DNA of 64,000 bases, from IMG/VR virus record IMGVR_UViG_3300045988_141926, positions 380-64,379 of that record; one strand, written 5' to 3'. Shown one piece after another: positions 38,941 through 55,467 of the stretch; positions within the stretch are counted from its first letter, which is position 1, and every line of letters starts with the position of its first letter. A program made the translations under genes and the position numbers. The notes under the pieces are model-generated. The model was given only the letters and a program-made list of their open reading frames with translations, was not told the origin of the DNA and did not search any database. This DNA is from a virus.

Positions 38941-38968
38941 ATACTATCAATTAAAGGAGGTCATTCAA

Positions 38969-39145: not shown

Positions 39146-39146
39146 T

Positions 39147-39470: not shown

Positions 39471-39541
39471 AAAATTGGGGCTTGACAACAAGCCCCATTT
39501 CTGCTATAATGAGTATAACAAAGCAAGGGAGGACGAAAAAA

Positions 39542-39868
39542 ATGTCTGATGTAATTATCGCTGGTCTGCTTATGGCTGGTCTGATGGGTCTGCCTGTTGG
39601 TCTGATTATCGCCATTAGCCGCGACCACTGGTGGAGTAAGGTACTGGCTCTCATTATTTCCTGTGCTATCTTCTTCGGCTTCGGCTGTGCGTTCGGGCAA
39701 GAGAGTGTCAATGACCGCGACACATTTAACAACGGTGTATGTGTCAAGTGTGGTGGCGAATATCGTTTCAGTTCCTCTACTCGCTACCGTATGAGCGAAA
39801 CATTTTACTACACCTGTCAAGACTGCGGTTGGACAATCGAAACCAACTGCTTGATGAACAAAAATTAA
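39542..39868 (+). CDS. Membrane-anchored Zn-ribbon protein, 109 aa
   Basis: N-terminal transmembrane segment, CxxC-N25-CxxC. The promoter's -35 lies in a terminator loop. Confidence 0.5.
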   Translation: MSDVIIAGLLMAGLMGLPVGLIIAISRDHWWSKVLALIISCAIFFGFGCAFGQESVNDRDTFNNGVCVKCGGEYRFSSSTRYRMSETFYYTCQDCGWTIETNCLMNKN

Positions 39869-39937
39869 GATAGGGGCTTGACAAACAAGCCCTTATCTGT
39901 TATAATAGATAATACCAAGAGAAAGGAGAATATCAAA

Positions 39938-40168
39938 ATGGAATTTATTGAGTCCCCTATCTATGTCAAGTTGAGTGATGAAGAGCGCAATTCACTCCAT
40001 GAGGTTTATGTCATTCTGAATGACCTTGTAAACGCCGCCGAAGAGAATGACTGCGAGTATGTGGGCAATCCGTTGACTGGTGATGGCTATGGGCGGTTTG
40101 ATGTGAGCCAAGCCGCTGAAATTTGCCGAGTGTTCGCACCTGCTGAAAAGTTAGAAATCAGTAATTAA
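39938..40168 (+). CDS. Hypothetical protein, 76 aa (paralog A)
   Basis: Promoter and SD. Confidence 0.5.
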   Translation: MEFIESPIYVKLSDEERNSLHEVYVILNDLVNAAEENDCEYVGNPLTGDGYGRFDVSQAAEICRVFAPAEKLEISN

Positions 40169-40182
40169 AGGAGGGAAACAAA

Positions 40183-40410
40183 ATGGAAGTTATTAAAGCC
40201 CCCATCTATGTCAAAATGACAGAGAAAGAGCGGAAAACCCTGCGCGATGCCTATGACATTCTGAATGAATTGTATAACGTCATCGCCGATAATGACTGCG
40301 ACTATGTGGGCGATACTTGCGGGAATACCTATGACAGAGTGGACGTCGCGCTTACGGCGAATGTGCTTCAAATGCTTGCCCCCACTGAAAAAGTGGAAAT
40401 CGGTAAATAA
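40183..40410 (+). CDS. Hypothetical protein, 75 aa (tandem paralog B)
   Basis: About 45% identical to the 39938 product. Confidence 0.5.
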   Translation: MEVIKAPIYVKMTEKERKTLRDAYDILNELYNVIADNDCDYVGDTCGNTYDRVDVALTANVLQMLAPTEKVEIGK

Positions 40411-40498
40411 AAAAATGTGGGAGAAATCCCACATTTTTTATTGACAACAACCAGTAGGTGTGCTATAATGTAGACAATGAAACAAGGAGGTAAAAACA

Positions 40499-40705
40499 AT
40501 GACTGCATTTGAAATTCGAGAGGAACTGGCGAACCGCTACAATTTAGAAATCCGCAATGTCTGCTGTTATCACTGTCAATACTGGGGCTATAACTGCGGT
40601 AAGGTGCTGAACTCTCAGTGTGAGAGCCGATGCACCAAGAGAATGAAAGACTGGACGTGGGCAAGCCAGTATTGCCGTGGCTTCGTTCCGAAATCGGGAA
40701 AGTAA
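40499..40705 (+). CDS. Cys-rich protein, 68 aa
   Basis: Promoter and SD. Confidence 0.45.
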   Translation: MTAFEIREELANRYNLEIRNVCCYHCQYWGYNCGKVLNSQCESRCTKRMKDWTWASQYCRGFVPKSGK

Positions 40706-40729
40706 ATCAAATAAAAAGGAGATACACTT

Positions 40730-40978
40730 ATGAAAATCATTCTCATTATTTACATCATTGGTATTGTTCTCTACTGGCTGGGTATCGCAAGCATCATTTC
40801 GACTATGAAGAAAAACAAGGAACAGGCGCAAGAAGTATTCAAGAACCGGGGTGAAAGCAAGCGCAGTCCGTTCTCTAACTGGTTGACCGTTATCACCGGC
40901 TCAATCATTCCGATTTTTCATTACGCCGTAGCATTCCTCTACATTTTCAAACCGGATTTTATTTTTGAAAAGGAATAA
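40730..40978 (+). CDS. Membrane protein, 82 aa
   Basis: Two hydrophobic segments. Confidence 0.45.
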   Translation: MKIILIIYIIGIVLYWLGIASIISTMKKNKEQAQEVFKNRGESKRSPFSNWLTVITGSIIPIFHYAVAFLYIFKPDFIFEKE

Positions 40979-41034
40979 AAATCATTTGGGCTGGATGAAC
41001 AAAAATCCAGCCCAATTTTTGTATAATTTTCCAC

Positions 41035-41170
41035 TTGACATTTTCGGCCGCGCGCTCACGAATGTGGCGCCCGGCATTTTTGTCAATAGGTATACTTCAC
41101 AAATTTTTCGCCGCAATTTTGTGCATTTTGACGATTGACTTCTATCCCGTAATGTAGTACAATGGCTATA
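41035..41170. promoter_or_regulatory. Degenerate copy of the convergent-promoter module (copy 2)
   Basis: Retains the GC hairpin, the leftward -35 tgtcaa and the third promoter (TTGACT-17-TACAAT). Palindrome arms are lost. Confidence 0.4.
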
Positions 41171-41192
41171 CTGAAACAAGGAGGTATGTATT

Positions 41193-41411
41193 ATGGATTT
41201 AAAGCAAGCGTATCAGGCGGTTTTCGCAGACCTGCGTGAATGCCCTATGTTCCACGGGCGGTATGACGCCATCAATGGCAATCCCTACTTTATGTCCGGC
41301 ATTGAGACGGTTATGGAGGTAATCGCCAATCGCGCCTATGATGATGATTTTGCCGAGAAGTTCTCCAATGAATTTACTGACAATATGTTAAGGAGTAGAG
41401 AAAGTGTTTAA
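41193..41411 (+). CDS. Hypothetical protein, 72 aa
   Basis: ORF with an SD. Confidence 0.5.
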   Translation: MDLKQAYQAVFADLRECPMFHGRYDAINGNPYFMSGIETVMEVIANRAYDDDFAEKFSNEFTDNMLRSRESV

Positions 41412-41580
41412 TATTGTATTGGCACTAATCGCCGTAGGCGGGTGCGCGTGGGCGATTATCCGCTCTATTCTCTGGCGAAATGAAAAATACCTATCCACCG
41501 AGGAGCAAATCCGCGAAATGATGGATGAAACGTCTATTTCCACTGAAACGCTGTGGAATCTGTTTGACAGACTAAACTGA
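41404..41580 (+). CDS. Membrane-anchored 58-aa protein (GTG start)
   Basis: Overlaps the upstream stop. Confidence 0.3.
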   Translation: MFNIVLALIAVGGCAWAIIRSILWRNEKYLSTEEQIREMMDETSISTETLWNLFDRLN

Positions 41581-41594
41581 AAGGAGTAAGAACA

Positions 41595-41966
41595 ATGTTT
41601 GATTTTCAGAAACTGACGCTCAAAAAATGGGCGCGCAATTTCCTCATTCTGTGTGGTTTTATCCTGCTGGTGTATGGTATGTTCAAATCCACATTCGTGC
41701 TGTATGCGGCTGTCGCCATTCTGACCCTGACTATCGCGGGCGCGTGCGCGTATACTCTGATAAGTTCTATCCGCTGGGATTGGCGGTTGCGTGGCAAGCT
41801 GACAGAGGACGAGTATAAGGCATACCAATCCTGTGATAGATGGTTTGGTTTTCAAGATGATAAATACCTGCCGACTGATGAACAAATTGTATGGATGGCT
41901 GAAAACACAAACAATTCCTGTGATACCTTATGGAGTATGTATAATAAACTGACAGAGGGGCATTAA
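41595..41966 (+). CDS. Membrane protein, 123 aa
   Basis: SD GGAG, two transmembrane segments, and a terminator. Confidence 0.5.
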   Translation: MFDFQKLTLKKWARNFLILCGFILLVYGMFKSTFVLYAAVAILTLTIAGACAYTLISSIRWDWRLRGKLTEDEYKAYQSCDRWFGFQDDKYLPTDEQIVWMAENTNNSCDTLWSMYNKLTEGH

Positions 41967-42112
41967 CGCCCCTCTTGTCAGATTTAGTTCTGACTAACTG
42001 CACGGAACAAAAAACTAATCCTGTGAGAATTTAACTACGGCAAAAATTTTTCTTGACATTTTCAAATAAATGTGGTAGTATTATAATAGAAATTAAGAAA
42101 GGAATTGATACT

Positions 42113-42313
42113 ATGAACATCCCCTCTAAGCTGAAACAAGTTGCTAATGAGTTGGAGCAACTGTCCATCGAAATCGCCGCAGAAAAGAAAAACCTGTCCA
42201 ATAGCGAGGACAAGCAAGCCGCTCAAAATTTGAGTGATGATTTGTTTGAAATCCAGTCTCACCTGCGCACATCTATGTACTGGCTGGCGGAAGCTATGTT
42301 CGGGGAGGATTGA
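42113..42313 (+). CDS. Hypothetical protein, 66 aa
   Basis: TTGACA promoter, SD. Confidence 0.5.
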   Translation: MNIPSKLKQVANELEQLSIEIAAEKKNLSNSEDKQAAQNLSDDLFEIQSHLRTSMYWLAEAMFGED

Positions 42314-42789
42314 TGACTATGAACGCAATTATCCTATTCATTGTCTGCACCGCTGTGAATGTGGTGCTGTCCACCATCAAATCCATTCTCACGGTCAAGG
42401 GCAACAAGTGGGTAGCCGCTGGTATCAATGCGCTGACCTATGGCTTCTATTCCTATGTCATTATCCTGACCAACATTGACGGCGTTTCTACGCTGGCAAA
42501 GATGGGCATTACCGCCGCCTGTAATTTCATCGGCGTGCTGGCGGTCAAATGGGTGGAGGAGTTGGCGCGCAAGGAAAAATTGTGGAAGATTGAAATGACT
42601 GTCCCCACAAAGTATCGTGCCGCTGTTGATTTTGACCTGCGAGACATTCCCCACTCATACATTGAGATTAGCAACAAACACACGTTATTCAATTTCTATT
42701 GTGCCACGCAAGCCGAGAGCAAAAAGGTCAAGGACATTGTGGCGCAGTATGGCGCAAAATATTTCGTAGCAGAAAGCAAAAATCTGTAA
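42310..42789 (+). CDS. Membrane protein, 159 aa
   Basis: Four predicted transmembrane segments and a soluble C-terminus. Confidence 0.5.
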   Translation: MMTMNAIILFIVCTAVNVVLSTIKSILTVKGNKWVAAGINALTYGFYSYVIILTNIDGVSTLAKMGITAACNFIGVLAVKWVEELARKEKLWKIEMTVPTKYRAAVDFDLRDIPHSYIEISNKHTLFNFYCATQAESKKVKDIVAQYGAKYFVAESKNL

Positions 42790-42855
42790 AATAGGGGTTG
42801 ACAAATCAGCCCCTCTGTGTTAGAATGGTATCATCAAATAAGGGAGGACAACAAA

Positions 42856-43005
42856 ATGGAAATGATTAAAGTTTTCAATGACCACACTGGCGAAATCCTT
42901 GAAAAGACGTTCGTAGACCCCGCGGACGCGGACGACTTCGAGTTCATTCTCGACTTCCTTGAAGCGAGATACGAACGCTACCACAACGGCGAACAAATCT
43001 ACTAA
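42856..43005 (+). CDS. Hypothetical protein, 49 aa
   Basis: The promoter's -35 lies in a terminator loop. SD AGGGAGG. Confidence 0.4.
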   Translation: MEMIKVFNDHTGEILEKTFVDPADADDFEFILDFLEARYERYHNGEQIY

Positions 43006-43018
43006 GGAGGGCGCGACA

Positions 43019-43216
43019 ATGGAAATCAAAGATGTGTACTACAATGTTGAGTGGTGGGGCATAACCACTTGGGGCGAACGCTTCACTAATAGCGAGTGGT
43101 TCAAGGACGAAAACGAAACTCTGTCGTTCATCGCAAATGACCTGGCAAATGACCCGCTTGTTCGTGGAGCAACCTTCACCACACACAAAACCATCGTATT
43201 TAAGAGAGGTGAATAA
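43019..43216 (+). CDS. Hypothetical protein, 65 aa
   Basis: SD GGAGG. Confidence 0.45.
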   Translation: MEIKDVYYNVEWWGITTWGERFTNSEWFKDENETLSFIANDLANDPLVRGATFTTHKTIVFKRGE

Positions 43217-43217
43217 A

Positions 43218-43427
43218 ATGATTACTATTCTGATAATGGTTATTGCCCTTGGCATTTCGTTCCTGTTTACTGCTGGGCTGGTCTGGCTTCTCTGCTGGCT
43301 TCTCCCTATGATTGGCATCGCGTCCATCGGCTCTATCGCCATCGTGTTTTCGTGGAAACTGGCGTTGGTCATTTGGCTCATTATCGCACTCCTACGCTCT
43401 ATTTTCAGCATCACTGTCAAGAAGTAA
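43218..43427 (+). CDS. Membrane protein, 69 aa
   Basis: Hydrophobic. Confidence 0.45.
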   Translation: MITILIMVIALGISFLFTAGLVWLLCWLLPMIGIASIGSIAIVFSWKLALVIWLIIALLRSIFSITVKK

Positions 43428-43469
43428 TAATTGAAAAATCTCCCAAATTTAGGAGATTTTTTTTGTTCA

Positions 43470-43690
43470 TTTTACCTATTGACAAACGCCCCTATTTGTG
43501 CTATACTCAGCCGAGCGCCCACGGTCCTGGCGCTCGAAATTTCCATTATACACCCTGCCAGCAATTTTGTCAATAGGTAAATTGAACAAATTTGACCAAA
43601 CACACATCCCGAAAGTTTGTGCAAAATAACCAACGAAAATTTGACAATTCTAAAAATTTTTTGTATAATAATGTCAATGACATAGATGGG
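43470..43690. promoter_or_regulatory. Convergent-promoter palindromic module, copy 3
   Basis: Same architecture with an 8-bp GC stem. Confidence 0.6.
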
Positions 43691-43704
43691 AGGATGGTCT
43701 AAAA

Positions 43705-44448
43705 ATGGACTATTACGTTTACATAACAACAAATAAAATTAACGGCAAACAATACATTGGGTAGCACAAAGGACGCCCAGACGATAACTATTTAGGTAGT
43801 GGAACAACTATACTAAAAGCAATCAGCAAGTATGGCAAGGAGAATTTTACTAAAAGTGTTTTGTGTTTTTGTGAAACAAGAGAAGAAGCCGACGCAAAAG
43901 AACGAGAATACATCCAATTATACAACGCAGTAAATGATGATAATTTTTATAATAATGCGGAAGGTGGCACAGGTGGAGACGGCTGGCGCAGTTGTCAAAG
44001 ATGGCTGGAACAACATCCAGAAGAAGCGCAAGCCATGTATAAACGAAATGGGGAACATTTGCGGAAATGGTGTGATACTCATCCAGAAGAATACAAAGAA
44101 AAATGTATTAAGCCAATGTTAGAAGCAAGTCATAAGCGATTAAAAGAAAATCCTGAACTCGTTAAACAACAAGTAATAAGATTAAATCAGGCAAAAGAAA
44201 AATGGCAACAAGAACATCCAGAAGAGCACCAAGCACAAGTAAATGAATGGCGAAAGGCTGGAAGTATTGCTAATAGTAAAGCAGTAATTTGTTTAACTAC
44301 TAATCGTGTATTTGAGTCTCAATCAGCGGCGGCTCGATACTATGGCGTTCCACAAAGCAACATTAGTAAATGTTTGAAAGGAGAGCGTAAAAGCGCGGGA
44401 GTAGACCCTGATACGGGTGAAAAATTATTTTGGGAATTTGTAAAATAA
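43705..44448 (+). CDS. GIY-YIG homing endonuclease with a NUMOD-like C-terminal helix-turn-helix. In-frame TAG at ~43762
   Basis: YVYITTNKINGKQYIG-TAG-HKG matches the GIY-YIG motif. C-terminal region ...QSNISKCLKGERKSAG. Confidence 0.7.
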
Positions 44449-44512
44449 CTCTTGACAAATAGGAGAATAGGCGTTATAATGTAGATACAATAAAACGAAG
44501 GAGACAAAAAGT

Positions 44513-44959
44513 ATGACTATTTACCTCGATCTCGATGGGACGGTGATTGATTTTTACGGCGTCCCCAACTGGTTGGAGTGCCTCGAAGCACAGGACAGCA
44601 CACCATATCGTGTGGCAAAGCCCCTTGTGCATCTGTCCACCCTCGCCCGCTATCTGAACCGCTTACAGGCGCGGGGCTACAATATCGGCATCATCAGTTG
44701 GCTGTCCAAGAGCGGAACGGATAAGTTCAACGCCGAAGTAGCCGAGGTCAAGCGGGAATGGCTGGCAAAGCATCTCCCCAGCGTTCAGTGGGACGAAATC
44801 CATATTGTCCCCTATGGCGTCCCCAAGTCCAACTGTGCGACCTGCCCCAACGCGATTTTGTTCGATGATGAACAGCGAAATCTCAATGAGTGGACGGCAA
44901 ACACCCACAATATGGCATACAACGCCAACCTGCTTATGGAAATCCTGCGAAACCTGTAA
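44513..44959 (+). CDS. HAD-superfamily 5'-nucleotidase-like phosphatase, 148 aa
   Basis: DLDGTV motif I and a C-terminal FDDE. Confidence 0.55.
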   Translation: MTIYLDLDGTVIDFYGVPNWLECLEAQDSTPYRVAKPLVHLSTLARYLNRLQARGYNIGIISWLSKSGTDKFNAEVAEVKREWLAKHLPSVQWDEIHIVPYGVPKSNCATCPNAILFDDEQRNLNEWTANTHNMAYNANLLMEILRNL

Positions 44960-45071
44960 AAAAAATAGCAAATAGGGGTTGACAATCTCACCCCTATTTG
45001 CTATAATATGTAATGTAATTAAGGTATGGGACACGATGGTAAACCCAACCAAGAGAAAAGGAGAATGAACA

Positions 45072-45728
45072 ATGAAAAATATCTACTGCACGCTGGACAC
45101 TGAAACGGTAGGCGGCGCGGCTCACCCCACGGGAATGTATAATGTGGGCGCGATTATCCACGACCGCAAGGGCGAAATCCTTGCCACCACTTCCCTGCTG
45201 GTGATGGAGCATTATGACGAAATCGCCACCGATGGCTATGCCAAGAAGAATTTTCCGGTATATGCCGAACGGCTCAAAGCTGGTGAAATCTCCGCTATCG
45301 CCACGGAGCGCGAAGCCTATGAGGTAATCAAAAACCTGTGCGACCATTACGGCGTTCGCTATGTGATGGCATACAATTCCGGTTTTGACTTCTGCAAGAC
45401 CTGTTTCCGCGACCTGCTGGACACTTTCGAGTTCATCGACCTGTATCTCATGGCACTGGAAACTATCACCCACAAAAAGTCCTATGCGGACTATTGCCGA
45501 GAAAATGGCAAGCGTTCCAAGAATGGCAAGACCTGTGCAACCTCTGTCGAAGCGGTGTATGGTTATCTCCACGGCAATCCTGACTTTGAGGAAGAACACA
45601 CCGCCCTGTCTGACGCTATGCAGGAAATGGAAATTTTCCTTGCTTGTCAGAAGATGCACAAGCGATACACCAAGAACGTCCACGCATGGGACGCGCCCTT
45701 TGAGGTAAAATGTTTTCCCAAGTTTTGA
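45072..45728 (+). CDS. DnaQ-like (DEDDh) 3'-5' exonuclease, 218 aa
   Basis: Exo I LDTET, Exo II YNSGFD, Exo III HTALSDA. Confidence 0.65.
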   Translation: MKNIYCTLDTETVGGAAHPTGMYNVGAIIHDRKGEILATTSLLVMEHYDEIATDGYAKKNFPVYAERLKAGEISAIATEREAYEVIKNLCDHYGVRYVMAYNSGFDFCKTCFRDLLDTFEFIDLYLMALETITHKKSYADYCRENGKRSKNGKTCATSVEAVYGYLHGNPDFEEEHTALSDAMQEMEIFLACQKMHKRYTKNVHAWDAPFEVKCFPKF

Positions 45729-45795
45729 GATTGGGGCTTGACAGCCCCTTTCTCATGTGGTATAATGGCTATACTAAGACAAGGAGGTAAGCGAA

Positions 45796-46008
45796 ATGCC
45801 TAAGCAGGTTCTTTTCAAGAGCGACCATTCAGATGGCGTTCAGGCAGGTATTCAGGTAGATAATGGAAATGTTATCTGTGCCTGTTGTGGTGGAGTATTC
45901 GAGGGCGAGGAGACTACCATTCTCCACGAGTTCGACTATTGGGTTGACTTTTCCGAATGGATTGGCGACCCTGACCTGACTGAATACCGCAAGCACGACA
46001 CCCCGTAA
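45796..46008 (+). CDS. Hypothetical protein, 70 aa
   Basis: Promoter, SD. Confidence 0.5.
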   Translation: MPKQVLFKSDHSDGVQAGIQVDNGNVICACCGGVFEGEETTILHEFDYWVDFSEWIGDPDLTEYRKHDTP

Positions 46009-46122
46009 AAAAAGTTTGGAATGGGGGTTGACAACGCCCCCATTCCATGCTATAATAACATTACAAATTCAAGGTAGGGGAAACGATGGTAAGCCCCACC
46101 AATAGAAAAGGAGAAAAAAACT

Positions 46123-46656
46123 ATGAAAGCTCGCTATGCTAACCTCAGAAATTTCAACCGCACGGTCAAGACCTACAAGTGGCTGGTAGACCTGTTCGGA
46201 AACAAGGAGTTCACTTCCGAGGACTTCTCCAAGGCAAAGCACGACTACCGGCGGTACACCTACAATTCCCTGTCGTTCCTGCGGGATGAGGGTATCATCA
46301 AGGTGGTACGCACCGAACAGACCACCAAGGAAATCAAGCTCGACCCGTGGGACGCGGAAAGCTGGATGATTGACAAGAATGGCAACGCCCTGATGACCGA
46401 GTACAACTGGATGCGTTTGCCGGAAGTGGCACAGTCCGCTCTGCTGGCTCTGAATGGTCAGGACTTCCGCGTTGAGCGCAAGGACACCAAGACCGTGGAA
46501 AAGGAGAAGCTTATTTACACGGTCAATCCCGCTGGTATGTTGAACTGGCGCAAGGGCTATGGGCGTCTGTTGGCTATGAGAGCTGACGCGCTGGCGGGCG
46601 AAATCGTCAGACTGAACGAAAAGCGGGACGCATTCCTTGCTTGTCAGATGGACTAA
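46123..46656 (+). CDS. Hypothetical protein, 177 aa
   Basis: Conserved structured leader. Confidence 0.55.
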   Translation: MKARYANLRNFNRTVKTYKWLVDLFGNKEFTSEDFSKAKHDYRRYTYNSLSFLRDEGIIKVVRTEQTTKEIKLDPWDAESWMIDKNGNALMTEYNWMRLPEVAQSALLALNGQDFRVERKDTKTVEKEKLIYTVNPAGMLNWRKGYGRLLAMRADALAGEIVRLNEKRDAFLACQMD

Positions 46657-46689
46657 AAAAATGAGGGGATTTTCCCCTCATTTTTTGTG

Positions 46690-46885
46690 CATTTTTACCT
46701 ATTGACAAATGCGCCTGGGTGTGGTATAATGGCCGGCCGATTTCGCGCGTCTCGGCCGGAATTCACCATTATACACCCCGTCAGCAATTTTGTCAAGAGT
46801 TTTTTTACACAAATTTTTTTATTTATTTTTCCCGAAACTTGTGCAGTCTGACTATTGCAATCTGCGCTCACCTATGGTACAATAC
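46690..46885. promoter_or_regulatory. Convergent-promoter palindromic module, copy 4
   Basis: TTGACA-17-TATAAT, GC hairpin with an 8-bp stem, leftward attata-N17-tgtcaa, third promoter. Confidence 0.6.
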
Positions 46886-46985
46886 ATAATGTCAAGAGGG
46901 GACAGCAAGTTGCTTCTCGGGGGAGCCACGCTGGCGGGTGTGATAACTCGGTAACTGACCCGCATTTCCCCTCTTGACAATCTTC
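46886..46985 (+). ncRNA. Small non-coding transcript 1
   Basis: The 5' GUCAAGAGGGGA pairs with a 3' UCCCCUCUUGAC. The 3' arm is the next promoter's -35. Confidence 0.45.
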
Positions 46986-47007
46986 GTCAAAGGTGCTATA
47001 ATGGGTA

Positions 47008-47100
47008 GTGTCAAGAGGGGAACGGCACGGCAGATGCGTCTAATGTGTCGCTTGTGTAGACAGGTTTCAGAAATTTGAAAAAATTTCAAAAAACCTCTTG
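47008..47100 (+). ncRNA. Small non-coding transcript 2
   Basis: Same 5' motif. Closing stem caagagg/cctcttg. Confidence 0.45.
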
Positions 47101-47138
47101 ACAATCCCCAGCACCCGTGCTATAATTGATAATGTCAA

Positions 47139-47400
47139 GAGGGGAACAGCCCCACCCAAGAAATCCGCGGGTCGCGAACCGTGCGAGAGTAAAGGAAGTA
47201 AGCCCTATACCAGCGCAGTAAAGCCTGAGCATGGAGCGGAAAGTGAGCAATTTGTGAGCAAGGTACAGACCGGAACTTCTAACCGGACTGCGACGCAATA
47301 ACATGGCAATACTCTTATCCGTATTCCGGGGTTGTAAGTCGTTGTGAATACTTGTGGAGCGTTCCCCTGTTGGCACTATCAAAAAAAATCAAGAATTTTG
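47139..47400 (+). ncRNA. ~260-nt non-coding transcript 3
   Basis: Same 5' motif. 3' GUUCCCC complement, then an A-run. No SD-preceded ORF. Confidence 0.4.
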
Positions 47401-47495
47401 AAAAAAAGTCTTGACAATCCCAGCGCAAGCTGTTATAATAGATAATGTCAGGAGGGCAAAGCCCTCAAAACCAAATGGAGAAAGGAATTGATACT

Positions 47496-47876
47496 ATGGC
47501 TAACACTAACACCACCACCCGCAAGCCCACCAAGCGCGATAATTTCACCGCCCTGCTGAAACTGTCCGAGGTCAAGGCTGACCCCAAGCTGGTGGAGTTC
47601 ATCACCCACGAAATCGACCTGCTCGACCGCAAGAACACCGTGGACAAGAAGCCCACCAAGACCCAGCAGGAGAATGAGGTCATCAAGACCACTGTCCTGT
47701 CCGCTATGGAGCGCGACCGCCTGTACTCCATCAGTGAGATGCTCAAAGAGTTCCCTGTCTGCAAGGACATGAGCAATCAGAAGCTGTCCTCCCTCGTTCG
47801 GCAGATGGTGCTGGACAAGCAGGTGGAGCGCGTGGAGGATAAGCGCAAGGCGTTCTTCCGCAAGGTGAGCGAGTAA
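47496..47876 (+). CDS. Cassette gene A1, 126 aa
   Basis: ELLDRKNTVDKKPT motif. The mRNA has a 5' stem-loop. Confidence 0.55.
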   Translation: MANTNTTTRKPTKRDNFTALLKLSEVKADPKLVEFITHEIDLLDRKNTVDKKPTKTQQENEVIKTTVLSAMERDRLYSISEMLKEFPVCKDMSNQKLSSLVRQMVLDKQVERVEDKRKAFFRKVSE

Positions 47877-47929
47877 ACCGCCCAAGGGTGGGGAGAAATC
47901 CCCACCCTATCCCCGAAAGGAGTAAGCGC

Positions 47930-48286
47930 ATGAATGAGCGTATTGCCGACCTTATGCGAAAGCTGGATTGCACCGAAGCCGAAGCCAAGGATATTATTGT
48001 CCAAGATGCTATTATCGACAAGGGCGGCAATCCGTTTCCGCTGACCGAGGAACAGGAAAAGGCAAGCAAGAAAGCGCGTGGAGTAGGACGCCAGCCGACC
48101 GCATACAAGTTCGCACCAAGAGAAAGAAAGGCTAATCTCACGAAGCAGGGCATTATCACCTTGCTGACCGAGACACTGACCACATACGGCGCGACTGACC
48201 TGAACGTGAGCAACGCGGAGCGCGAATTTTTATTCACGCTTGATGGAACAAAATACAAGGTTGTGCTGTCGTGTCCGCGCAAGTGA
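47930..48286 (+). CDS. Cassette gene B1, 119 aa, basic
   Basis: PTAYKFAPRERKAN motif. Confidence 0.55.
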   Translation: MNERIADLMRKLDCTEAEAKDIIVQDAIIDKGGNPFPLTEEQEKASKKARGVGRQPTAYKFAPRERKANLTKQGIITLLTETLTTYGATDLNVSNAEREFLFTLDGTKYKVVLSCPRK

Positions 48287-48317
48287 GGGAGAGAAATCTC
48301 CCTCATTTTTTTTGTGT

Positions 48318-48520
48318 ATTTTGACTATTGACAAATCCGGGCGCGCGTGGTATAATTCGGTCGCGCGTCCACGTATGTGGCGCTCGAAATTTCTATTATA
48401 CACCCCACTGGCAATTTTGTCAAGCGTTTTTTTGCACAAATTTCAAAGATTGAAAATCCCGTTTTTTGTAGGTATTGCCTATTGTAATTCTCCTGTAATG
48501 TGTTATAATGATGATACTGA
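48318..48520. promoter_or_regulatory. Convergent-promoter palindromic module, copy 5
   Basis: Same architecture. Third promoter TTGTAA-16-TATAAT. Confidence 0.6.
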
Positions 48521-48535
48521 AAGGAGCGATGAACG

Positions 48536-49219
48536 ATGGAGTTTCCGAGAGTTCAGGATTTTATCCTGATTATCCAGCAGGCGGTATCTGAAAAGCCTGT
48601 GCGGGTCAGAAGTGCTGACAGACTATCCCGCGCTATCCACCGAGAATATCCTAATGTCAAGATAGCTACCAGCAACGGCGCAAGCAAGGAATGTCTGGTA
48701 TTCCCTGATTTGGGCTATGTTCTCAAATGGTCTACGGAGACGCGGGACGCAGAGCGCGAAGTGGCTGTGTATAAGAAAGCCGTAGAAGCAAACCTCGCGG
48801 ATTTTTTCCCCGCCACCGAGTTGGCTGGCTACATTGTTCCCCCGCGTAAGTGTGATGACCCTATCGCGTTCACCGCTCAACAGATTATCACCAACAGCGC
48901 ACACAAAATCATGTGGAATGAGGGCGGGATAAAAACTCGTCTCTTGCGTATCGCAAAGACTGTCCCCGACTGTCGCATCAAGCAGATTGAGCGGCAGTTC
49001 CGCAAAGCCGACCTCAATGGCTATGGGCGTGAGCTGGACGGACTGTGGGCGAAAGTTGCCGTTTCTATCTACGGCAAGCGCAAGGTTATCGCCCTCTGTG
49101 AGTTCGTTAAAAAGTATCACATCAACGACCTCCACGGCTCAAACATCGGCTACATTGGCATTTCTCCTGTTATCCTCGATTTCTCCGGCTATGGCGTCTG
49201 TGATGGTTTAGAGTTTTGA
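48536..49219 (+). CDS. Protein-kinase-like fold phosphotransferase, 227 aa
   Basis: HINDLHGSNIGY and ILDFSGYG, plus a lysine in YVLKW and a glutamate in EREVAVYKK. Confidence 0.45.
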   Translation: MEFPRVQDFILIIQQAVSEKPVRVRSADRLSRAIHREYPNVKIATSNGASKECLVFPDLGYVLKWSTETRDAEREVAVYKKAVEANLADFFPATELAGYIVPPRKCDDPIAFTAQQIITNSAHKIMWNEGGIKTRLLRIAKTVPDCRIKQIERQFRKADLNGYGRELDGLWAKVAVSIYGKRKVIALCEFVKKYHINDLHGSNIGYIGISPVILDFSGYGVCDGLEF

Positions 49220-49264
49220 AAAAAACTCTTGACAAACAGCCCCGCCTGTGCTATACTAACATCG

Positions 49265-49612
49265 TGAGGTGAGAAAAATGAAATGGCGATTGTATCGTCC
49301 CCCTTAGTAGTCAATCATAGTTTGATTAGATAGTTTAATGATTGATTATATTTATACCCCAGCCAAGATGGAGTTTAATAGAGTGTTTGTCCCACTCAAT
49401 AATTTCTTCTCAACCGCCATCTTGAACCCCTCGTTAGAAATTGGGACTGGGTACGAAGTTCTAACCACATTCACCGCGTGCCAAGAAAGACCATCTATGT
49501 GGGCATTGCGCCCGTCTGATTAGGTCTGCTGTGTAGAAGTGGGCTGGCTGTCCGGACGGCTGGCGAACATCAACAGGGGAACCAGCGTAGTAGCCAACTA
49601 CGCTGGTTTATT
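49265..49612 (+). ncRNA. ~340-nt non-coding transcript candidate
   Basis: TTGACA-17-TATACT upstream and a terminator at ~49575-49612. Only a 61-aa ORF with no SD. Confidence 0.35.
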
Positions 49613-49617
49613 TTTGT

Positions 49618-49810
49618 GTATTTTGCCTATTGACAAATGCGCTCAAATGTGGTATAATGGGTCGGGCGCTCACGAACGTGGCGCCCGAAATTTCCATTAT
49701 ACCACGCGGCACAAATTTTGTCAAGTGTTTTTTTGCACAAATTTTAGATGTTGAAAATCCCATTTTTTGTGAGTATTGACTATTGTAATTTGCCCAAGGG
49801 TGTGGTAATA
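49618..49810. promoter_or_regulatory. Convergent-promoter palindromic module, copy 6 (canonical)
   Basis: Perfect consensus on both strands: 12-bp arms gtggtataatgg/ccattataccac and hairpin cgggcgc-N11-gcgcccg. Third promoter TTGACT-18-TGgTAATAT. Confidence 0.65.
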
Positions 49811-49988
49811 TATAATTGTTCCAAGGGAGAGGGCGAGAGCCTCCGGCGGGGCGTGTACCTTAAAAAAATTCCACAAATCCGAAAAAAAGTCTTGACAAGG
49901 CTTCGGATATGTGTTAGAATATAGATGTTCCAAGAGGGAAACAACAATAAGGTGGGCGACACCTAAAAACGCAGAAAGGGTTGATACT

Positions 49989-50408
49989 ATGACTAACACT
50001 ACTTCCTCTGTGCGCCTGACCAAGCGCGACTACTTCACCGCCATTCTGTCCAAGGTGGATATGGACGCCACTTATGACATTCCCAAGGGCGATGCCACTG
50101 TCAAGGTTTCCGGTGCTGATGTGGCGGGCTTCCTGAACCACGAGCTGGAACTGCTCGACCGCAAGAACACCGTGGACAAGAAGCCCACCGCCACCCAGCT
50201 GGCAAACGAGGGTATCAAGGCTGACATCAAGGCGTTCCTGGACGCCCACAAGGGCGAGAAGTACACCGTCTCCGCTCTGATGAAGTCTGTCCCCGCTATC
50301 GCCGATGCGTCCAATCAGAAGGTTTCTTCTTTGGTGCGTCAGATGGTCATTGACGGTCTGGCAGAGCGTATCGAAGATAAGCGCAAGGCGTATTTCACCG
50401 CCAAGTGA
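49989..50408 (+). CDS. Cassette gene A2, 139 aa
   Basis: Shares ELLDRKNTVDKKPT and QKVSSLVRQMV with A1. Confidence 0.55.
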   Translation: MTNTTSSVRLTKRDYFTAILSKVDMDATYDIPKGDATVKVSGADVAGFLNHELELLDRKNTVDKKPTATQLANEGIKADIKAFLDAHKGEKYTVSALMKSVPAIADASNQKVSSLVRQMVIDGLAERIEDKRKAYFTAK

Positions 50409-50472
50409 GACAAGAGGGGGGGGAGATAACCTCTCCCCCTCTCTCCCCTAAAATCTGAAAAGGCGGTGTTTT

Positions 50473-50871
50473 ATGGCTGACATTTCCAAAACCGAATGGC
50501 TGAAAAACGCTATGGCGAAAATGGGCTGGACTGCCGATGAAGCGGAAGCCGTGTGGAACTCTGACCGAGAAATCGACAAGGGTAAGAAACAGGATTTTGA
50601 CCTGTCGAAAGAACAGCTTAAAATCGCCCAAAAATTCGCCAAGACTGGCACACGCAAGACCCCCACCGCATACAAATTCACCACAAGGGAACGCAAGGCA
50701 AATCCCACAAAAGCGGCTATTATCGCTGAATTGGCAACATTTTTGACCGAAAATAGCGAAAATGCCTGCGAAAATGTGGAAATTACCAACAAAGAGCGTC
50801 AAATTGCGTTCAAAATCGGTGAAAACTCCTATGAACTGACGCTTGTGCAGAAGCGCAAGCCGAAAAGTTGA
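50473..50871 (+). CDS. Cassette gene B2, 132 aa
   Basis: Shares PTAYKF-RERKAN with B1. Confidence 0.55.
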   Translation: MADISKTEWLKNAMAKMGWTADEAEAVWNSDREIDKGKKQDFDLSKEQLKIAQKFAKTGTRKTPTAYKFTTRERKANPTKAAIIAELATFLTENSENACENVEITNKERQIAFKIGENSYELTLVQKRKPKS

Positions 50872-50921
50872 GAAAATGGGGGAGAAATCCCCCATTTTCC
50901 CCGGAAATCGAGGAAAAAAGT

Positions 50922-51266
50922 GTGAAAAACAAGGAATTTTTGTATGTTGGACACTATTATGATGAAAATGGCGTCTACATTCTGAAAATAGGCACGACTA
51001 ACGACTTAAAGCGCAGACAGCGAGAGCATACACGAAACTACAAGAAATCGCCTGTTTACCGTCTACCGAAAACTGGCAAGTTCATTTACGATTTTTCGCT
51101 ACCGCTCTCCAAGTACAATACTCTACGCTACGAGGACAAAAACCGTGAACGCTGGCAAAAACTGGGATACGGCGAGTTTGTGAGAAATGACAGATTTGCG
51201 TGTCCTGTGAAGCCGAAATCTGTTGAAATTACCATTCGTCGAACTTACCAAATCGCTCTCGATTGA
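50922..51266 (+). CDS. Small GIY-YIG domain protein (~115 aa, GTG start)
   Basis: FLYVGHYYDENGVYILKIGTTNDLKRRQREH. Confidence 0.5.
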   Translation: MKNKEFLYVGHYYDENGVYILKIGTTNDLKRRQREHTRNYKKSPVYRLPKTGKFIYDFSLPLSKYNTLRYEDKNRERWQKLGYGEFVRNDRFACPVKPKSVEITIRRTYQIALD

Positions 51267-51289
51267 GGGCGATTTTTTTTTATTTAATT

Positions 51290-51440
51290 TGACTATTGAC
51301 AACGCCCTCTGACTGTGGTATAATGGGTCGGGCGCTCACGGATGTGGCGCCCGGCATTTTTGTCAATACACATTTTCAACAATTTTTCCGGCGAAAGTTT
51401 GTATAAATTGACTATTGCATTTTGTCCCGAAATGCGCTAT
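51290..51440. promoter_or_regulatory. Degenerate copy of the convergent-promoter module (copy 7)
   Basis: TTGACA-17-TATAAT and a hairpin. The 3' arm is deleted. Confidence 0.45.
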
Positions 51441-51491
51441 ACTATAAACAATCTGAGGGAGCTGGAACCCACCAACAGCACGGAGGCATCT

Positions 51492-52100
51492 ATGAATAAG
51501 AGCCAGTTTTTTGACCACGAAATCGAGTTCATTCAGTCCGAGGATTTGCGCTCATTCGTGCGCTATTACTTCGATTGTATCGTTCCCGACTATTTCTGGA
51601 CTATCGGCGCGAGTTCTTCCGGCAAGTTCCATCCGGCTATGAGCCAAGGCGAGGGCGGTTTGGTACGCCACACTAAGGCGGTTGCGTGGTTTTGTGAGGA
51701 ATTGCTCCGCATGAGCCAGTGGGCGTATCTCACTGACGAGCGCAAGGACTACGCAAGAGTTGCCTGTCTGCTCCACGATACAGCCAAGTATGGTTTACAC
51801 GAGTTCGACAAGGAGTTGTACCCCAAGCACGGGGAAATGGCGGCTGACCAAGTACGCCGTTCGTGGCTGGTCTTTTTCGAGAGCGACTGCCCCTATGAGT
51901 TGACGCAAGCCATCAAGTCCCACATGGGTCAATGGACTACCGACAAGGCGAACAGACCTTTCACTCCTATTGATAGGTTGGTACACATGGCTGACTATGT
52001 GGCAAGCCGAGCGTTTATCGACATTCCGGCAATCAACGCTGACTATAACGACAAGGCGGAGTTAAACCAGATTGTGCCTGACCTGCCGTGGGAAGATTAA
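51492..52100 (+). CDS. HD-domain phosphohydrolase, 203 aa
   Basis: H...HD...D motifs. Confidence 0.55.
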   Translation: MNKSQFFDHEIEFIQSEDLRSFVRYYFDCIVPDYFWTIGASSSGKFHPAMSQGEGGLVRHTKAVAWFCEELLRMSQWAYLTDERKDYARVACLLHDTAKYGLHEFDKELYPKHGEMAADQVRRSWLVFFESDCPYELTQAIKSHMGQWTTDKANRPFTPIDRLVHMADYVASRAFIDIPAINADYNDKAELNQIVPDLPWED

Positions 52101-52134
52101 TTTGTTAAGGGTGGAGAAATCCACCCTTAATTTT

Positions 52135-52440
52135 TGTTCATTTTACCTATTGACAAATTGGGCCAGGTGTGGTATACTAAAAGGGGAGGTACAACGGGCC
52201 GAGCGCGGGCGCTGCGGTCCGAATTCCCGATCTGTACCCCCATATGGAAAATTTTCCGTAATTCTAGCGGCCTTCATATGCGCCCATATTTTCCCAAAAC
52301 CCGAGGCACCGCTCGGTACCCATATGCCGCCCGGTTTGACATAAAAAAAAATTTATGTTATAATGATAAAAAAAACCATTTTTTTTCTCACTTGACTTTT
52401 AAAAAAATTTTTTGTATAATATGTATATACAAAATGAAAA
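52135..52440. promoter_or_regulatory. Divergent copy of the convergent-promoter module (copy 8) with a 3x CATATG repeat, followed by two AT-rich promoters
   Basis: TTGACA-17-TATACT, then a GC-rich insert in place of the palindrome, then AT-rich promoters before the 52453 gene. Confidence 0.4.
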
Positions 52441-54286: not shown

Positions 54287-54465
54287 TTTTATTTCTCCTT
54301 TTGTTCTTTATTTTTGTTCTCGTCTCTACGATTTTTACATCGGGAAAATTCCCAATGGGATTAAATAAGCCGGCGTCAGCCGGATTATTTAAGCCCACCC
54401 TCTATTGCCACAAACCTATTTCAACCCTCTATTACTATTTAATAGGTTTCTAAAAATTGACCACT

Positions 54466-54550
54466 TTTATAGAAAATTTTGACCACTTTATCTAACACCA
54501 TCAGAAAATTTTGACCACTTTTATCAGAAAATTTTGACCACTTTATTTAG
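54466..54550. repeat. Iteron array: 4x AAAATTTTGACCACTTT(T)AT
   Basis: Direct repeats with about 20-bp periodicity. Confidence 0.7.
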
Positions 54551-55172: not shown

Positions 55173-55235
55173 AAATACCAACCTCCTTCCATAGAACAAT
55201 AAAAATTACGCCTTTTCTATTGAATGGTCCTGACC

Positions 55236-55385
55236 AGAATTTTTTAACCACTTTTATAGAAAATTTTGACCATTTTTATAGAAAAAATTACTCTTTTTTA
55301 TAGAAAATTTTGACCACTTTTATAGAAATTTTTGGACACTTTTATAGAAAATTTTGACCACTTTTATATCAAATGACCATTTTTG
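55236..55385. repeat. Iteron array: about 6x TTTTGACCACTTTTATAGAAAA
   Basis: Same unit as 54466-54550, with about 22-bp periodicity. Confidence 0.7.
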
Positions 55386-55467
55386 TCCGACACGGTAAGA
55401 CGCGGAAACGAAATTTCGTTTATCTCAACATTTTTATTCTAAATTTCGCTAACCGCTCTTTAATTGA

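What the first reader, a model, noticed from the sequence alone, without database searches (positions are those of the whole stretch)
49618..49810. Best-preserved module copy: perfect consensus on both strands
ttgacaaatgcgctcaaatgtggtataatgggtcgggcgctcacgaacgtggcgcccgaaatttccattataccacgcggcacaaattttgtcaag. Plus strand: TTGACA-17-TATAAT. Minus strand: TTGACA-17-TATAAT. The arms are 12-bp perfect inverted repeats. A TTGACT-18-TGgTAATAT promoter follows and drives a short transcript beginning GUUCCAAGGGAGAGGG. This copy is the obvious one to test experimentally.
Basis: seen in the sequence. Interest (0 to 1): 0.75.

Follow-up and report, generated by a model that had tools for sequence, protein, structure and literature searches.

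The report
Face-to-face promoter cassette with shared hairpin
This is one of five copies of a repeated control element in a gut phage's early-gene region, in which two textbook-perfect bacterial promoters point at each other across a small hairpin; the backward-pointing promoter is the best conserved part in many related phages, so it probably works as a built-in antisense brake or insulator, though this has not been tested.

Summary
The core observation is real. At 49630-49724, TTGACA-17-TATAAT occurs on both strands, with 12-bp perfect inverted arms. The window has 26 perfect sites against 0.04 expected.

The two promoters are convergent, not divergent. Their predicted start sites lie about 24 bp apart, on either side of a GC-rich hairpin (49662-49688). 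Its "short transcript" has no terminator.

The window holds five full copies and four decayed ones, all in one orientation, between small ORFan genes in the standard-code early region of a TAG-recoded phage distantly related to phAss-1. More than 35 further copies occur in 80-197 kb gut phage contigs.

Across copies the hairpin covaries. The antisense promoter (P2) hexamers are invariant, whereas the sense promoter's -10 drifts. One window copy is a chimera of two copies in a close relative, matching a 1-kb gene indel.

Best reading: a terminator-promoter cassette, analogous to T4-type PeSLs, with an added face-to-face antisense promoter. P2 would make a roughly 110-nt noncoding RNA with the hairpin at its 5' end and would compete with P1. 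Promoter activity, start sites and effect are inferred, not shown. I rate it a new variant of known kinds, of moderate interest.

The parts
49579..49616 (+). Intrinsic terminator of the upstream unit: a 13-bp stem (GAACCAGCGTAG...CTACGCTGGTTT) followed by a T-run that merges into the P1 upstream region.
   Evidence: top-ranked terminator-like site. Every family copy starts right after such a terminator. In this copy the antisense side has no U-tract, so it is not bidirectional here.
49613..49629 (+). Upstream (UP-like) motif of P1: TTTGTGTA-N9 before the -35.
   Evidence: (family D3). The same motif sits at the same distance upstream of P2 and P3.
49630..49658 (+). P1, the sense promoter: TTGACA, 17 nt, TATAAT, with TGTGg (-16 / extended -10) and a GG discriminator. 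The predicted start is about 49664-49666, 2-4 nt inside the hairpin stem.
   Evidence: The -35 is invariant in 41 copies. The -10 drifts to TATACT or TAAAAT in many copies. The start site is inferred from spacing.
49662..49688 (.). GC-rich hairpin between the two -10 boxes: TCGGGCGC-U-CAC-GAAC-GUG-GCGCCCGA, -20.6 kcal/mol on either strand.
   Evidence: Covariation in 41 copies: 86% paired against 18-40% in slid controls; 56 double-sided changes against 20.7 in shuffles, 0/500.
49689..49695 (-). Conserved linker (plus-strand AATTTCC; GGAAATT on the P2 strand). It is the P2 discriminator and start region. The predicted P2 start is about 49686-49691, at the foot of the hairpin.
   Evidence: Majority frequency 0.87-0.92, the best conserved non-hexamer block. 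The distance from the P2 -10 to the stem is 7-9 nt in most copies.
49696..49724 (-). P2, the antisense promoter: TTGACA (49724-19), 17 nt, TGg + TATAAT (49701-49696). It faces P1.
   Evidence: Both hexamers are 100% invariant in 41 copies, including 17 copies not found by the exact pattern. P2 is kept even where P1 is lost (window 37918-37947; L006:197; L099:5900).
49734..49741 (-). Upstream motif of P2: TTTGTGCA on the minus strand, 9 nt from the -35.
49757..49811 (+). P3, the second forward promoter, back-to-back with P2: conserved ATCCC-A/T-run-TTTGTG motif, -35 TTGTAA (49783-88), 17 nt, TGg + TAATAT (49806-11). The predicted start is G49818.
   Evidence: P3 is present downstream of nearly all copies. 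It is weak in this copy (8/12, not listed).
49818..49891 (+). Leader beginning GUUCCAAGGGAGAGGG. It has no ORF and no terminator, and runs into the next promoter.
   Evidence: A similar leader occurs in L109 and phAss-1.
49892..49920 (+). Fourth promoter of the stack (TTGACA-17-TAGAAT, class with TTTTGAAAAAA-type upstream region). Its start is about 49927 (GUUCCAAGAGGG). The first gene starts at 49989 (139 aa ORFan).

Best explanation
The element is one copy of a repeated regulatory cassette in the host-RNA-polymerase-transcribed early region of a TAG-recoded gut siphophage. The host is predicted to be Clostridia.

Layout, left to right: terminator of the preceding gene; P1, a maximal sigma-A promoter pointing forward; a GC-rich hairpin; P2, an equally maximal promoter pointing backward; the P2 upstream motif; then P3, a weaker forward promoter next to the downstream gene.

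Proposed mechanism:
- The predicted starts of P1 and P2 are only about 24 bp apart, so the two polymerase footprints overlap. Only one of the two can be occupied at a time, which gives promoter competition and transcriptional interference.
- P1 transcription runs through P2 and P3 into the downstream gene.
- P2 makes a noncoding antisense RNA of about 100-120 nt. It starts with the hairpin (a 5' end protector in Firmicutes), continues as the A-rich antisense of the P1 promoter region, and runs into the upstream terminator hairpin.
- The net effect is a built-in antisense brake or insulator at the cassette boundary. It would limit P1 output and neutralise read-through from the preceding unit, leaving P3 as the unhindered promoter.
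- Because the cassette is repeated, it also serves as a recombination substrate that adds or removes ORFan gene cassettes, as PeSL elements do in T4-type phages.

Shown: the sequence anatomy, copy number, conservation pattern, hairpin covariation, and the chimeric copy at an indel.
Inferred: promoter activity, start sites, RNA length and stability, interference, and the direction of the regulatory effect.
For: Chance and placement:
- 26 perfect promoters against 0.04 expected. All five perfect 17-nt-spacer minus-strand ones inside the plus-strand early region are P2 sites of modules. One further perfect minus-strand site, with an 18-nt spacer, is the P2 of the decayed copy at 37835.
- There are five full copies, all on the plus strand, each between a terminator and a downstream gene.

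Distribution:
- The same architecture occurs in more than 20 other large phage contigs and in phAss-1.

P2 behaves as a selected promoter:
- Its hexamers are 100% invariant and its spacing is fixed, while its spacer has a majority frequency of about 0.70-0.74.
- It has its own TTTGTGCA-N9 upstream motif and a GG discriminator.
- The P1 -10 drifts (majority frequency 0.86, minimum 0.53) in 17 copies not found by the exact pattern.
- P2 survives where P1 is lost.

Hairpin:
- It covaries: 86% paired, 56 compensatory cells against 20.7 in shuffles, 0/500.
- Loops of 4-11 nt argue for an RNA hairpin rather than a DNA cruciform.
- The P2 -10 sits 7-9 nt from the stem, so the P2 RNA would begin at the hairpin foot.

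Predicted P2 RNA:
- It folds as a 5' hairpin, a single-stranded A-rich middle and a 3' hairpin; z = -3.7 to -6.5 in four of five copies. It has no ORF.

Recombination:
- The window copy at 38727 is a chimera of two L079 copies (left 84% against 57% identity; right 94% against 66%), with 1 kb missing between them.

Precedent:
- PeSL cassettes in T4-type phages (PMC4122927).
- Face-to-face promoter interference in 186 / P2 and in restriction-modification systems (and established knowledge).
Against: - There are no expression data of any kind. Promoter use, start sites and RNA ends are predictions.
- The hairpin is equally stable on both strands (-17.3 against -17.6 kcal/mol). In a distant AT-rich relative (L038) it sits nearer the P2 -10, so 'the hairpin belongs to P2' is not universal.
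- Only 2 of 5 window copies have a U-tract after the antisense terminator hairpin, and this copy has none. A/T-symmetric terminators are only slightly commoner before modules than elsewhere (12/31 against 10/50). The length of the P2 RNA is therefore uncertain.
- The benefit to the phage of opposing its own strong promoter is not explained by the data.
- Templated mutation in palindromes could inflate the apparent covariation. One example is the loop inversion between L045 and L087.
Confidence: 0.5

Rival explanations
1. OOP-like shut-off RNA. The main job of P2 is post-transcriptional. Its stable antisense RNA pairs with the 3' end (terminator hairpin and beyond) of the mRNA of the preceding gene, or with read-through RNA. 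This makes a double-stranded RNase III substrate and shortens the life of that early message. Interference with P1 would be secondary.
For: - P2 always points at the terminator and 3' end of the preceding gene.
- The predicted RNA has protected ends.
- In 3 of 5 window copies, including this one, the antisense side has no U-tract, so the RNA would extend into the upstream unit.
- The precedent is lambda OOP / cII (own knowledge).
Against: - The preceding genes are unrelated ORFans with no common theme.
- This reading does not explain why P1 must face P2 at a fixed distance of about 37 bp between the -10 boxes.
Confidence: 0.2
2. Polymerase trap or roadblock. The pair of maximal promoters mainly holds host RNA polymerase. 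The tight, slowly escaping complexes on the GC-rich start region would block read-through from upstream head-on, or would titrate host polymerase. The RNAs would be by-products.
For: - Both promoters carry every known strength element: UP-like motif, -35, 17-bp spacing, TRTG, -10 and a GG discriminator.
- There are about 30 near-perfect promoters in 16 kb.
- The initial transcribed region is GC-rich.
Against: - Covariation shows selection for base-pairing, not just GC content.
- A roadblock does not need a co-directional P1.
Confidence: 0.12
3. RNA processing site. The whole quasi-palindrome (TTGACAAA...TGGTATAAT-hairpin-ATTATACCA...TTTGTCAA) matters only as a long irregular hairpin in read-through early RNA. 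It would be cut by RNase III like the T7 early intercistronic sites. The minus-strand 'promoter' would be just the complement of P1.
For: - There are inverted repeats of 12 bp and 8 bp around a stable hairpin.
- Other promoters in the window are also embraced by inverted repeats (CCTCTTGAC...GTCAAGAGG).
Against: - The arms are invariant to the sigma-A consensus rather than covarying.
- The two 17-nt spacers are not complementary (about 7/17 in this copy).
- P2 has its own upstream motif outside the palindrome, and it persists where P1 is deleted.
Confidence: 0.08
4. No function for P2. It would be a by-product of hairpin-driven inverted duplication or gene conversion of P1, carried along by a mobile or recombining cassette.
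For: - Palindrome-associated rearrangements do occur here, such as the loop inversion between L045 and L087.
- There are recurrent deletions between AATTT microhomologies that remove the P2 -10 in window 51266 and 41005, L105:1671 and L109:12813.
Against: - Copies are only 64-74% identical overall, yet the P2 hexamers are 100% conserved and better kept than the P1 -10.
- The spacers differ between the two arms.
Confidence: 0.05
5. DNA-level operator or cruciform bound by a phage or host regulator, or a CRISPR-repeat mimic RNA.
For: It is a palindromic GC-rich core flanked by A/T-rich sequence. It resembles type I-C repeats only superficially (GTCG...hairpin...GAAAT).
Against: - The stem sequences differ among the five copies in one genome, so no single protein or Cas complex could read them.
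- The loops are too long for easy cruciform extrusion.
- There is no ATTGAAAC-type handle.
- There is no Rfam match.
Confidence: 0.03

Closest known systems
PeSL (promoter-early stem-loop) cassettes of T4-type phages (Arbiol 2010; Comeau 2014, PMC4122927)
   Same: - A terminator stem-loop is fused to a near-perfect sigma-70-type early promoter.
- There are many copies among ORFan genes.
- Copies sit at indel boundaries between close relatives and appear to mediate cassette shuffling.
   Different: - PeSLs have one promoter. No antisense promoter, second hairpin or third promoter has been described.
- The hosts and phage lineage are unrelated, with no sequence homology.
- Here the antisense promoter is the most conserved part.
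Face-to-face promoter switches (coliphage 186 pR/pL, P2 Pe/Pc; Ecl18kI restriction-modification promoters)
   Same: Two convergent promoters lie close enough for transcriptional interference or competition (start sites 35-62 bp apart there, about 24 bp here).
   Different: - Those drive two protein-coding operons and are governed by repressor operators.
- Here P2 has no ORF and there is no conserved operator.
- The unit is repeated five or more times per genome, and a covarying hairpin fills the overlap.
IS10 pIN/pOUT (RNA-IN / RNA-OUT)
   Same: Face-to-face promoters with a short 5' overlap (36 nt there). The antisense RNA is a stable stem-loop made from the stronger promoter.
   Different: In IS10 the overlap contains the ribosome-binding site and start codon of the controlled gene. 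Here the first start codon is 200-325 nt downstream of P1.
Lambda OOP antisense RNA
   Same: A short constitutive antisense RNA in a phage early region, running toward the 3' end of an upstream, oppositely transcribed message.
   Different: OOP is a single copy, overlaps coding sequence, and does not face another promoter.

Membership tests
PeSL-type mobile regulatory cassette | A stem-loop terminator lies immediately upstream of a near-consensus sigma-70-type early promoter. | tested here: met
   Terminator at 49579-49616 followed by P1 at 49630-58. The same holds in all copies.
PeSL-type mobile regulatory cassette | Many copies occur in a variable region of small ORFan genes. | tested here: met
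   Five full and four partial copies lie in 37.8-52.2 kb. Eight of the ten neighbouring genes tested match no family of known function in PHROGs or Pfam; the other two are an HD-domain protein and a 5' nucleotidase-like protein.
PeSL-type mobile regulatory cassette | Copies coincide with indel boundaries between close relatives. | tested here: met
   The window copy at 38727 is a chimera of L079 modules A and B, with 1 kb absent. An 0.8-kb homing-endonuclease insertion abuts the copy at 43449.
PeSL-type mobile regulatory cassette | Common descent or sequence similarity with T4-type PeSLs, and a single-promoter architecture. | tested here: not met
   The phage group is different (a siphovirus-like code-15 clade). 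The architecture has an extra antisense promoter, hairpin and P3. It is therefore an analogue, not a member.
Face-to-face lysis/lysogeny-type promoter switch | Convergent promoters with overlapping transcripts. | tested here: met
   By sequence only: the predicted start sites are about 24 bp apart.
Face-to-face lysis/lysogeny-type promoter switch | Each promoter drives a protein-coding operon, and repressor operators overlap the promoters. | tested here: not met
   There is no ORF or ribosome-binding site downstream of P2. The central palindrome differs between copies, so it is not a shared operator.
IS10-type 5'-overlapping antisense control | The overlap includes the translation start of the sense gene. 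| tested here: not met
   The first start codon with a ribosome-binding site is at 49989, about 325 nt from the P1 start.
Intrinsic terminator (central hairpin) | A GC-rich stem directly followed by a U-tract. | tested here: not met
   The hairpin is followed by GAAAUUUCC on the plus strand and ACCCAUUAUA on the minus strand. Only the truncated variants (51266, 41005) acquire a T5 run.
Any Rfam RNA family | A covariance-model match. | tested here: not met
   There is no hit at gathering threshold in the whole window and nothing relevant at E<=1 in 34-56 kb.
Functional sigma-A promoter (P1, P2) | Transcription initiation by the host holoenzyme. | not testable with these tools
   Only consensus match and comparative conservation are available.

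The most novel reading that the evidence does not exclude
Large TAG-recoded gut phages of Clostridia may organise their early ORFan genes with a previously undescribed regulatory grammar. Each gene cassette would be bounded by a unit whose most conserved component is a maximal antisense promoter. That promoter would fire a hairpin-capped noncoding RNA head-on against an equally strong sense promoter 24 bp away. The hairpins differ between copies, so each unit would be a private sense/antisense pair. The arrangement would give every cassette its own timer or insulator, and at the same time provide the homology that shuffles cassettes between phages.
Probability: 0.3. Interest if true: 0.7.

Novelty: new variant of a known kind. 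Interest (0 to 1): 0.55.

Why it matters
Early regions of uncultured gut phages are almost entirely unannotated. This cassette gives a concrete, compact and testable unit of about 200 bp, with an unusual design.

- It has two consensus promoters in mutual exclusion across a covarying hairpin, with the antisense one under the strongest constraint.
- If it is active, it would be a natural example of repeated, modular transcriptional interference and antisense control.
- It would also be a landmark for finding early regions and cassette boundaries in metagenomic phage contigs.
- It could serve as a ready-made part for synthetic biology in Firmicutes (very strong promoters, an insulator).
- It extends the PeSL idea of regulatory cassettes driving gene shuffling to an unrelated phage lineage.

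Tried and rejected
- Near and distant DNA search against GenBank phages gave only a 179-bp match to phAss-1, so there is no annotated close relative. The phAss-1 paper does not mention promoters or repeats.
- Rfam gave nothing. There are no tRNA or tmRNA genes.
- The CRISPR-repeat mimic, operator and cruciform ideas were rejected because the stem sequences differ among copies in one genome and the loops are long.
- The single-stranded-DNA (Frpo-like) promoter idea was rejected because the two spacers are not complementary.
- A sigma-dependent pause or nut/put-like antitermination site was considered. There is no -10-like element downstream on the non-template strand, and no conserved hairpin sequence.
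- I tested which RNA strand the hairpin serves, using stability and G-U counts. The result was no clear bias: -17.3 against -17.6 kcal/mol, 10 against 19 G-U pairs.
- I tested whether terminators before modules are preferentially bidirectional. The enrichment was weak (12/31 against 10/50) and not decisive (the first attempt, timed out).
- A genome-contig scan for a host found modules only on short MAG contigs of inconsistent taxonomy, which are probably mis-binned phage. The Pseudoflavonifractor isolate hits belong to a different operator-containing element.
- PHROGs and Pfam searches of ten neighbouring proteins gave almost nothing.
- For the neighbouring ncRNA-like units, too few homologues were fetched for a covariation test.

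Full report
**Context**

The window comes from a phage of the 'Caudoviricetes code 15 clade'.
- The only GenBank phage match is a 179-bp stretch of phAss-1 (OQ749652, human gut).
- Positions 1-34000 are AT-rich (24-34% GC) and coded on the minus strand with TAG read as sense. ORFs of at least 200 aa rise from 6 to 17 when TAG is not a stop, and the longest reaches 2763 aa.
- Positions about 35.8-52.4 kb are 44-50% GC and coded on the plus strand in the standard code. They hold about 45 small, mostly ORFan genes.
- This second block has the appearance of an early region read by host RNA polymerase. It holds 24 of the window's 26 perfect TTGACA-N17-TATAAT sites, against 0.04 expected for the whole window, plus many 10-11/12 sites and terminators.
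- The phAss-1 paper predicts Clostridia (Eubacteriales) hosts and does not discuss promoters or repeats (PMC10607447).

**Checking the observation**

- The plus-strand promoter is TTGACA 49630-35, a 17-nt spacer ending TGTGG, and TATAAT 49653-58.
- The minus-strand promoter is TTGACA 49724-19, 17 nt, TGG, and TATAAT 49701-49696.
- The arms GTGGTATAATGG (49649-60) and CCATTATACCAC (49694-705) are a perfect 12-bp inverted repeat.
- The 12 bp equal the full extended core of a Gram-positive promoter: TRTG -16 motif, -10 hexamer and GG discriminator. The role of those motifs is my own knowledge.
- The composite pattern occurs three times in the window and never in 100 shuffles.
- The covariance model gives this copy the top score in the window, 146.5 bits, so 'best preserved' is right.
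TTGACT (49776-81) is 21-24 nt from the -10. The hexamer that aligns with the other copies is TTGTAA (49783-88), 17 nt before TGg-TAATAT (49806-11). That is 8/12 to consensus.
- A start at G49818 is plausible because the next promoter (49892-49920) starts with the same GUUCCAAG 7 nt after its -10. No terminator follows, so the transcript is not short.

**Geometry**

- The two perfect promoters are convergent.
- With the usual 7-nt distance, P1 starts at about 49665 and P2 at about 49689, which is 24 bp apart.
- Open complexes protect to about +20 (established knowledge), so the two footprints overlap over 49670-49684 and cannot coexist. This is an inference.
- Between the -10 boxes lies a hairpin (49662-49688), at -20.6 kcal/mol on either strand.

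**Copies in the window**

- Repeat finding, alignment and the covariance model give five full copies (38727, 43449, 46672, 48298, 49600), all on the plus strand.
- Each lies between the terminator of one gene and the next gene.
- There are four decayed copies:
  - 51266, where the P2 -10 is deleted and the hairpin is now followed by T5.
  - 41005, where both -10 boxes are lost.
  - 37835, where P1 is lost but P2 is perfect with an 18-nt spacer.
  - 52120.
- The full layout is: terminator; TTTGTGCA-N9-P1; hairpin; conserved linker; P2; the reverse-complement TTTGTGCA motif 9 nt behind the P2 -35; ATCCCGAAATTTGTGCA-N9-P3.
- All three promoters therefore belong to one promoter class, with the same upstream motif.

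**Relatives**

- About a third have the GC hairpin and the same flanks. They lie on 80-197 kb contigs, many from human gut.
- The other hits are unrelated face-to-face pairs with operator-like repeats. Convergent consensus promoters as such are therefore not rare in phages.
- Searching the fetched loci with the model found further copies that do not match the exact pattern, including two in phAss-1 whose P2 -10 is TACAAT.
- A genome scan found more copies, but only on short MAG contigs of inconsistent taxonomy, so it gives no host.

**What is conserved**

In 41 full copies:
- The P1 -35, P2 -35 and P2 -10 are invariant.
- The P1 -10 has a mean majority frequency of 0.94.
- The spacers score 0.58 (P1) and 0.70 (P2), and the hairpin scores 0.66.
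- The 7-nt linker on the P2 side scores 0.87.

In the 17 copies that were not found through the exact pattern:
- P2 is still 12/12 in every one.
- The P1 -10 is TATACT or TAAAAT in 14.
- Many of these are orthologues, so they are not 17 independent events, but the asymmetry is consistent.

P2 also persists where P1 is gone (window 37918-47; L006:197; L099:5900). This is the pattern expected of a selected promoter, not of a passive complement of P1.

**The hairpin**

- On the model-fitted alignment, 86% of cells pair, against 18-40% when partners are slid.
- Five of eight pairs show double-sided changes.
- There are 56 compensatory cells against 20.7 +/- 3.3 in shuffles, 0/500.
- Two caveats apply. 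The alignment was fitted to the structure. Palindromes can also be repaired by templated mutation; L045 and L087 differ by an inversion of the 19-nt core.
- Stems of 8-14 bp with loops of 4-11 nt suit RNA better than cruciform DNA.
- The stem begins 3-4 nt after the P1 -10 and 7-9 nt after the P2 -10 in most copies. The P2 RNA would therefore start at the stem foot, and the P1 RNA a few nucleotides inside it, still giving a flush but shorter 5' hairpin.
- Stability shows no strand preference. In the AT-rich relative L038 the offset is mirrored, so both RNAs may use the hairpin.
- 5'-terminal stem-loops protect RNA from RNase J1 / 5'-end-dependent decay in Firmicutes (my own knowledge).
- The other promoters here start with AAGAGGGG-type Shine-Dalgarno-like leaders that resemble STAB-SD stabilisers. 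This fits a general concern with 5' end protection (inference).

**The predicted P2 RNA**

- It has no ORF.
- It folds as a 5' hairpin, a roughly 45-nt A-rich single strand (the antisense of the P1 promoter region) and the antisense terminator hairpin. The z-scores are -3.7 to -6.5 in four of five copies.
- A U-tract follows in 2 of 5 window copies, and not in this one.
- A/T-symmetric terminators are only modestly commoner before modules than elsewhere (12/31 against 10/50).

**Recombination**

- Compared with the close relative IMGVR_UViG_3300045988_134374 (L079 + L030, about 90% identical), the window copy at 38727 has its left flank like L079 module A (84% against 57%). Its right flank is like module B (94% against 66%).
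- The 1 kb with two small ORFs that separates A and B is absent from the window.
- An 0.8-kb GIY-YIG endonuclease gene, absent from L030, sits immediately after the copy at 43449.
- This matches the behaviour described for PeSL cassettes in T4-type phages (PMC4122927).

**Interpretation**

- The best-supported reading is a PeSL-like terminator-promoter cassette that has gained a face-to-face antisense promoter and a shared hairpin.
- P1 and P2 would compete. P2 would make a stable noncoding antisense RNA and oppose both P1 and any read-through from upstream. P3 would be left as the unhindered promoter of the downstream gene.
- I give this 0.5.
- The rivals are listed separately with their evidence: an OOP-like shut-off of the upstream message, a polymerase trap or roadblock, an RNase III site in read-through RNA, a functionless palindrome by-product, and an operator or CRISPR mimic.
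- None of the promoter activities has been measured. The decisive experiments are simple and are listed separately.

**Novelty and score**

- I found no description of this architecture in the searched literature or in Rfam.
- Its ingredients are all known: consensus promoters, convergent interference, antisense RNA, 5' hairpins and shuffling cassettes.
- The combination is new: the repetition, the covarying hairpin in the overlap, and the stronger constraint on the antisense promoter.
- I rate it a new variant of a known kind, with interest 0.55.

Noticed in passing
window 1-34000 (minus strand) versus 35800-52400 (plus strand): There is a sharp split in the window. The AT-rich part (24-34% GC) is late-type, with TAG read as sense; ORFs of at least 200 aa go from 6 to 17 and the longest reaches 2763 aa. 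The 44-50% GC part is the early region, in the standard code. The GC contrast of about 20 points within one phage genome is striking.
   Followed up: partly
window 43641-44445: A GIY-YIG homing-endonuclease-like gene (MDYYVYITTNKINGKQYIG*HKG...) with one in-frame TAG and its own AT-rich promoter. It is inserted right after module 43449 and is absent from the close relative L030.
   Followed up: partly
window 38727-38881 versus L079:1956-2112 and L079:3108-3263: The window module is a chimera of two modules of a close relative, with the intervening 1 kb (two small ORFs) missing. This is direct evidence that modules recombine with each other.
   Followed up: yes
window 46890-46976, 47133-47385, 49264-49612: These are promoter-driven units without convincing ORFs. 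The first two begin GUCAAGAGGGGA and close with UUCCCCUCUUGAC, which overlaps the next promoter's -35. Fold z-scores are -2.3 to -3.1 and there is no Rfam match. They are possibly structured noncoding RNAs. The 5' AAGAGGGG resembles a STAB-SD stabiliser.
   Followed up: partly
window 39476-39510, 39870-39906, 44966-45007, 45733-45766, 46015-46056: A second kind of compact cassette, very PeSL-like. The terminator hairpin itself contains the -35 hexamer in its loop or arm (GGGGCTTGACAACAAGCCCC) and its T-run is the promoter spacer.
   Followed up: no
window 46970-47026, 47094-47150, 47407-47463: In the 'TTTTGAAAAAA' promoter class, the region just upstream of and including the -35 (CCTCTTGAC) is the inverted repeat of the first transcribed bases (GTCAAGAGG). 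Read-through RNA would enclose the promoter core in a hairpin loop.
   Followed up: no
window 54449-54546 and 55214-55389: Two arrays of about 22-nt direct repeats (AGAAAATTTTGACCACTTTTAT). They are iteron-like and may mark a replication origin.
   Followed up: no
window 35966-36620: Six copies of a 28-31-nt site with the palindrome TTGTTAAAAATTTAACAA, at the junction of the late and early regions. They are operator-like and suggest a dedicated DNA-binding regulator.
   Followed up: no
L045:6475-6570 versus L087:6998-7093: Two nearly identical phages differ by an inversion of the 19-nt core of the module hairpin, between the arms GGCTCG and CGAGCC. This shows palindrome-mediated rearrangement at these sites.
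   Followed up: partly
window 51296-51370, 41036-41095; L105:1671, L109:12813: There is recurrent independent loss of the P2 -10 and spacer by deletion between AATTT microhomologies. This leaves hairpin + TTTT(T)GTCAA, which turns the hairpin into a terminator-like element right after P1.
   Followed up: partly
L124, L128, L136, L141, L167, L196 and others (Pseudoflavonifractor genomes and other Clostridiales assemblies): This is an unrelated face-to-face perfect promoter pair with a central ACATAACA-N-TGTTATGT palindrome (operator-like), found in chromosomal contigs of isolates and in MAGs. It is a different, probably repressor-controlled, convergent switch.
   Followed up: no
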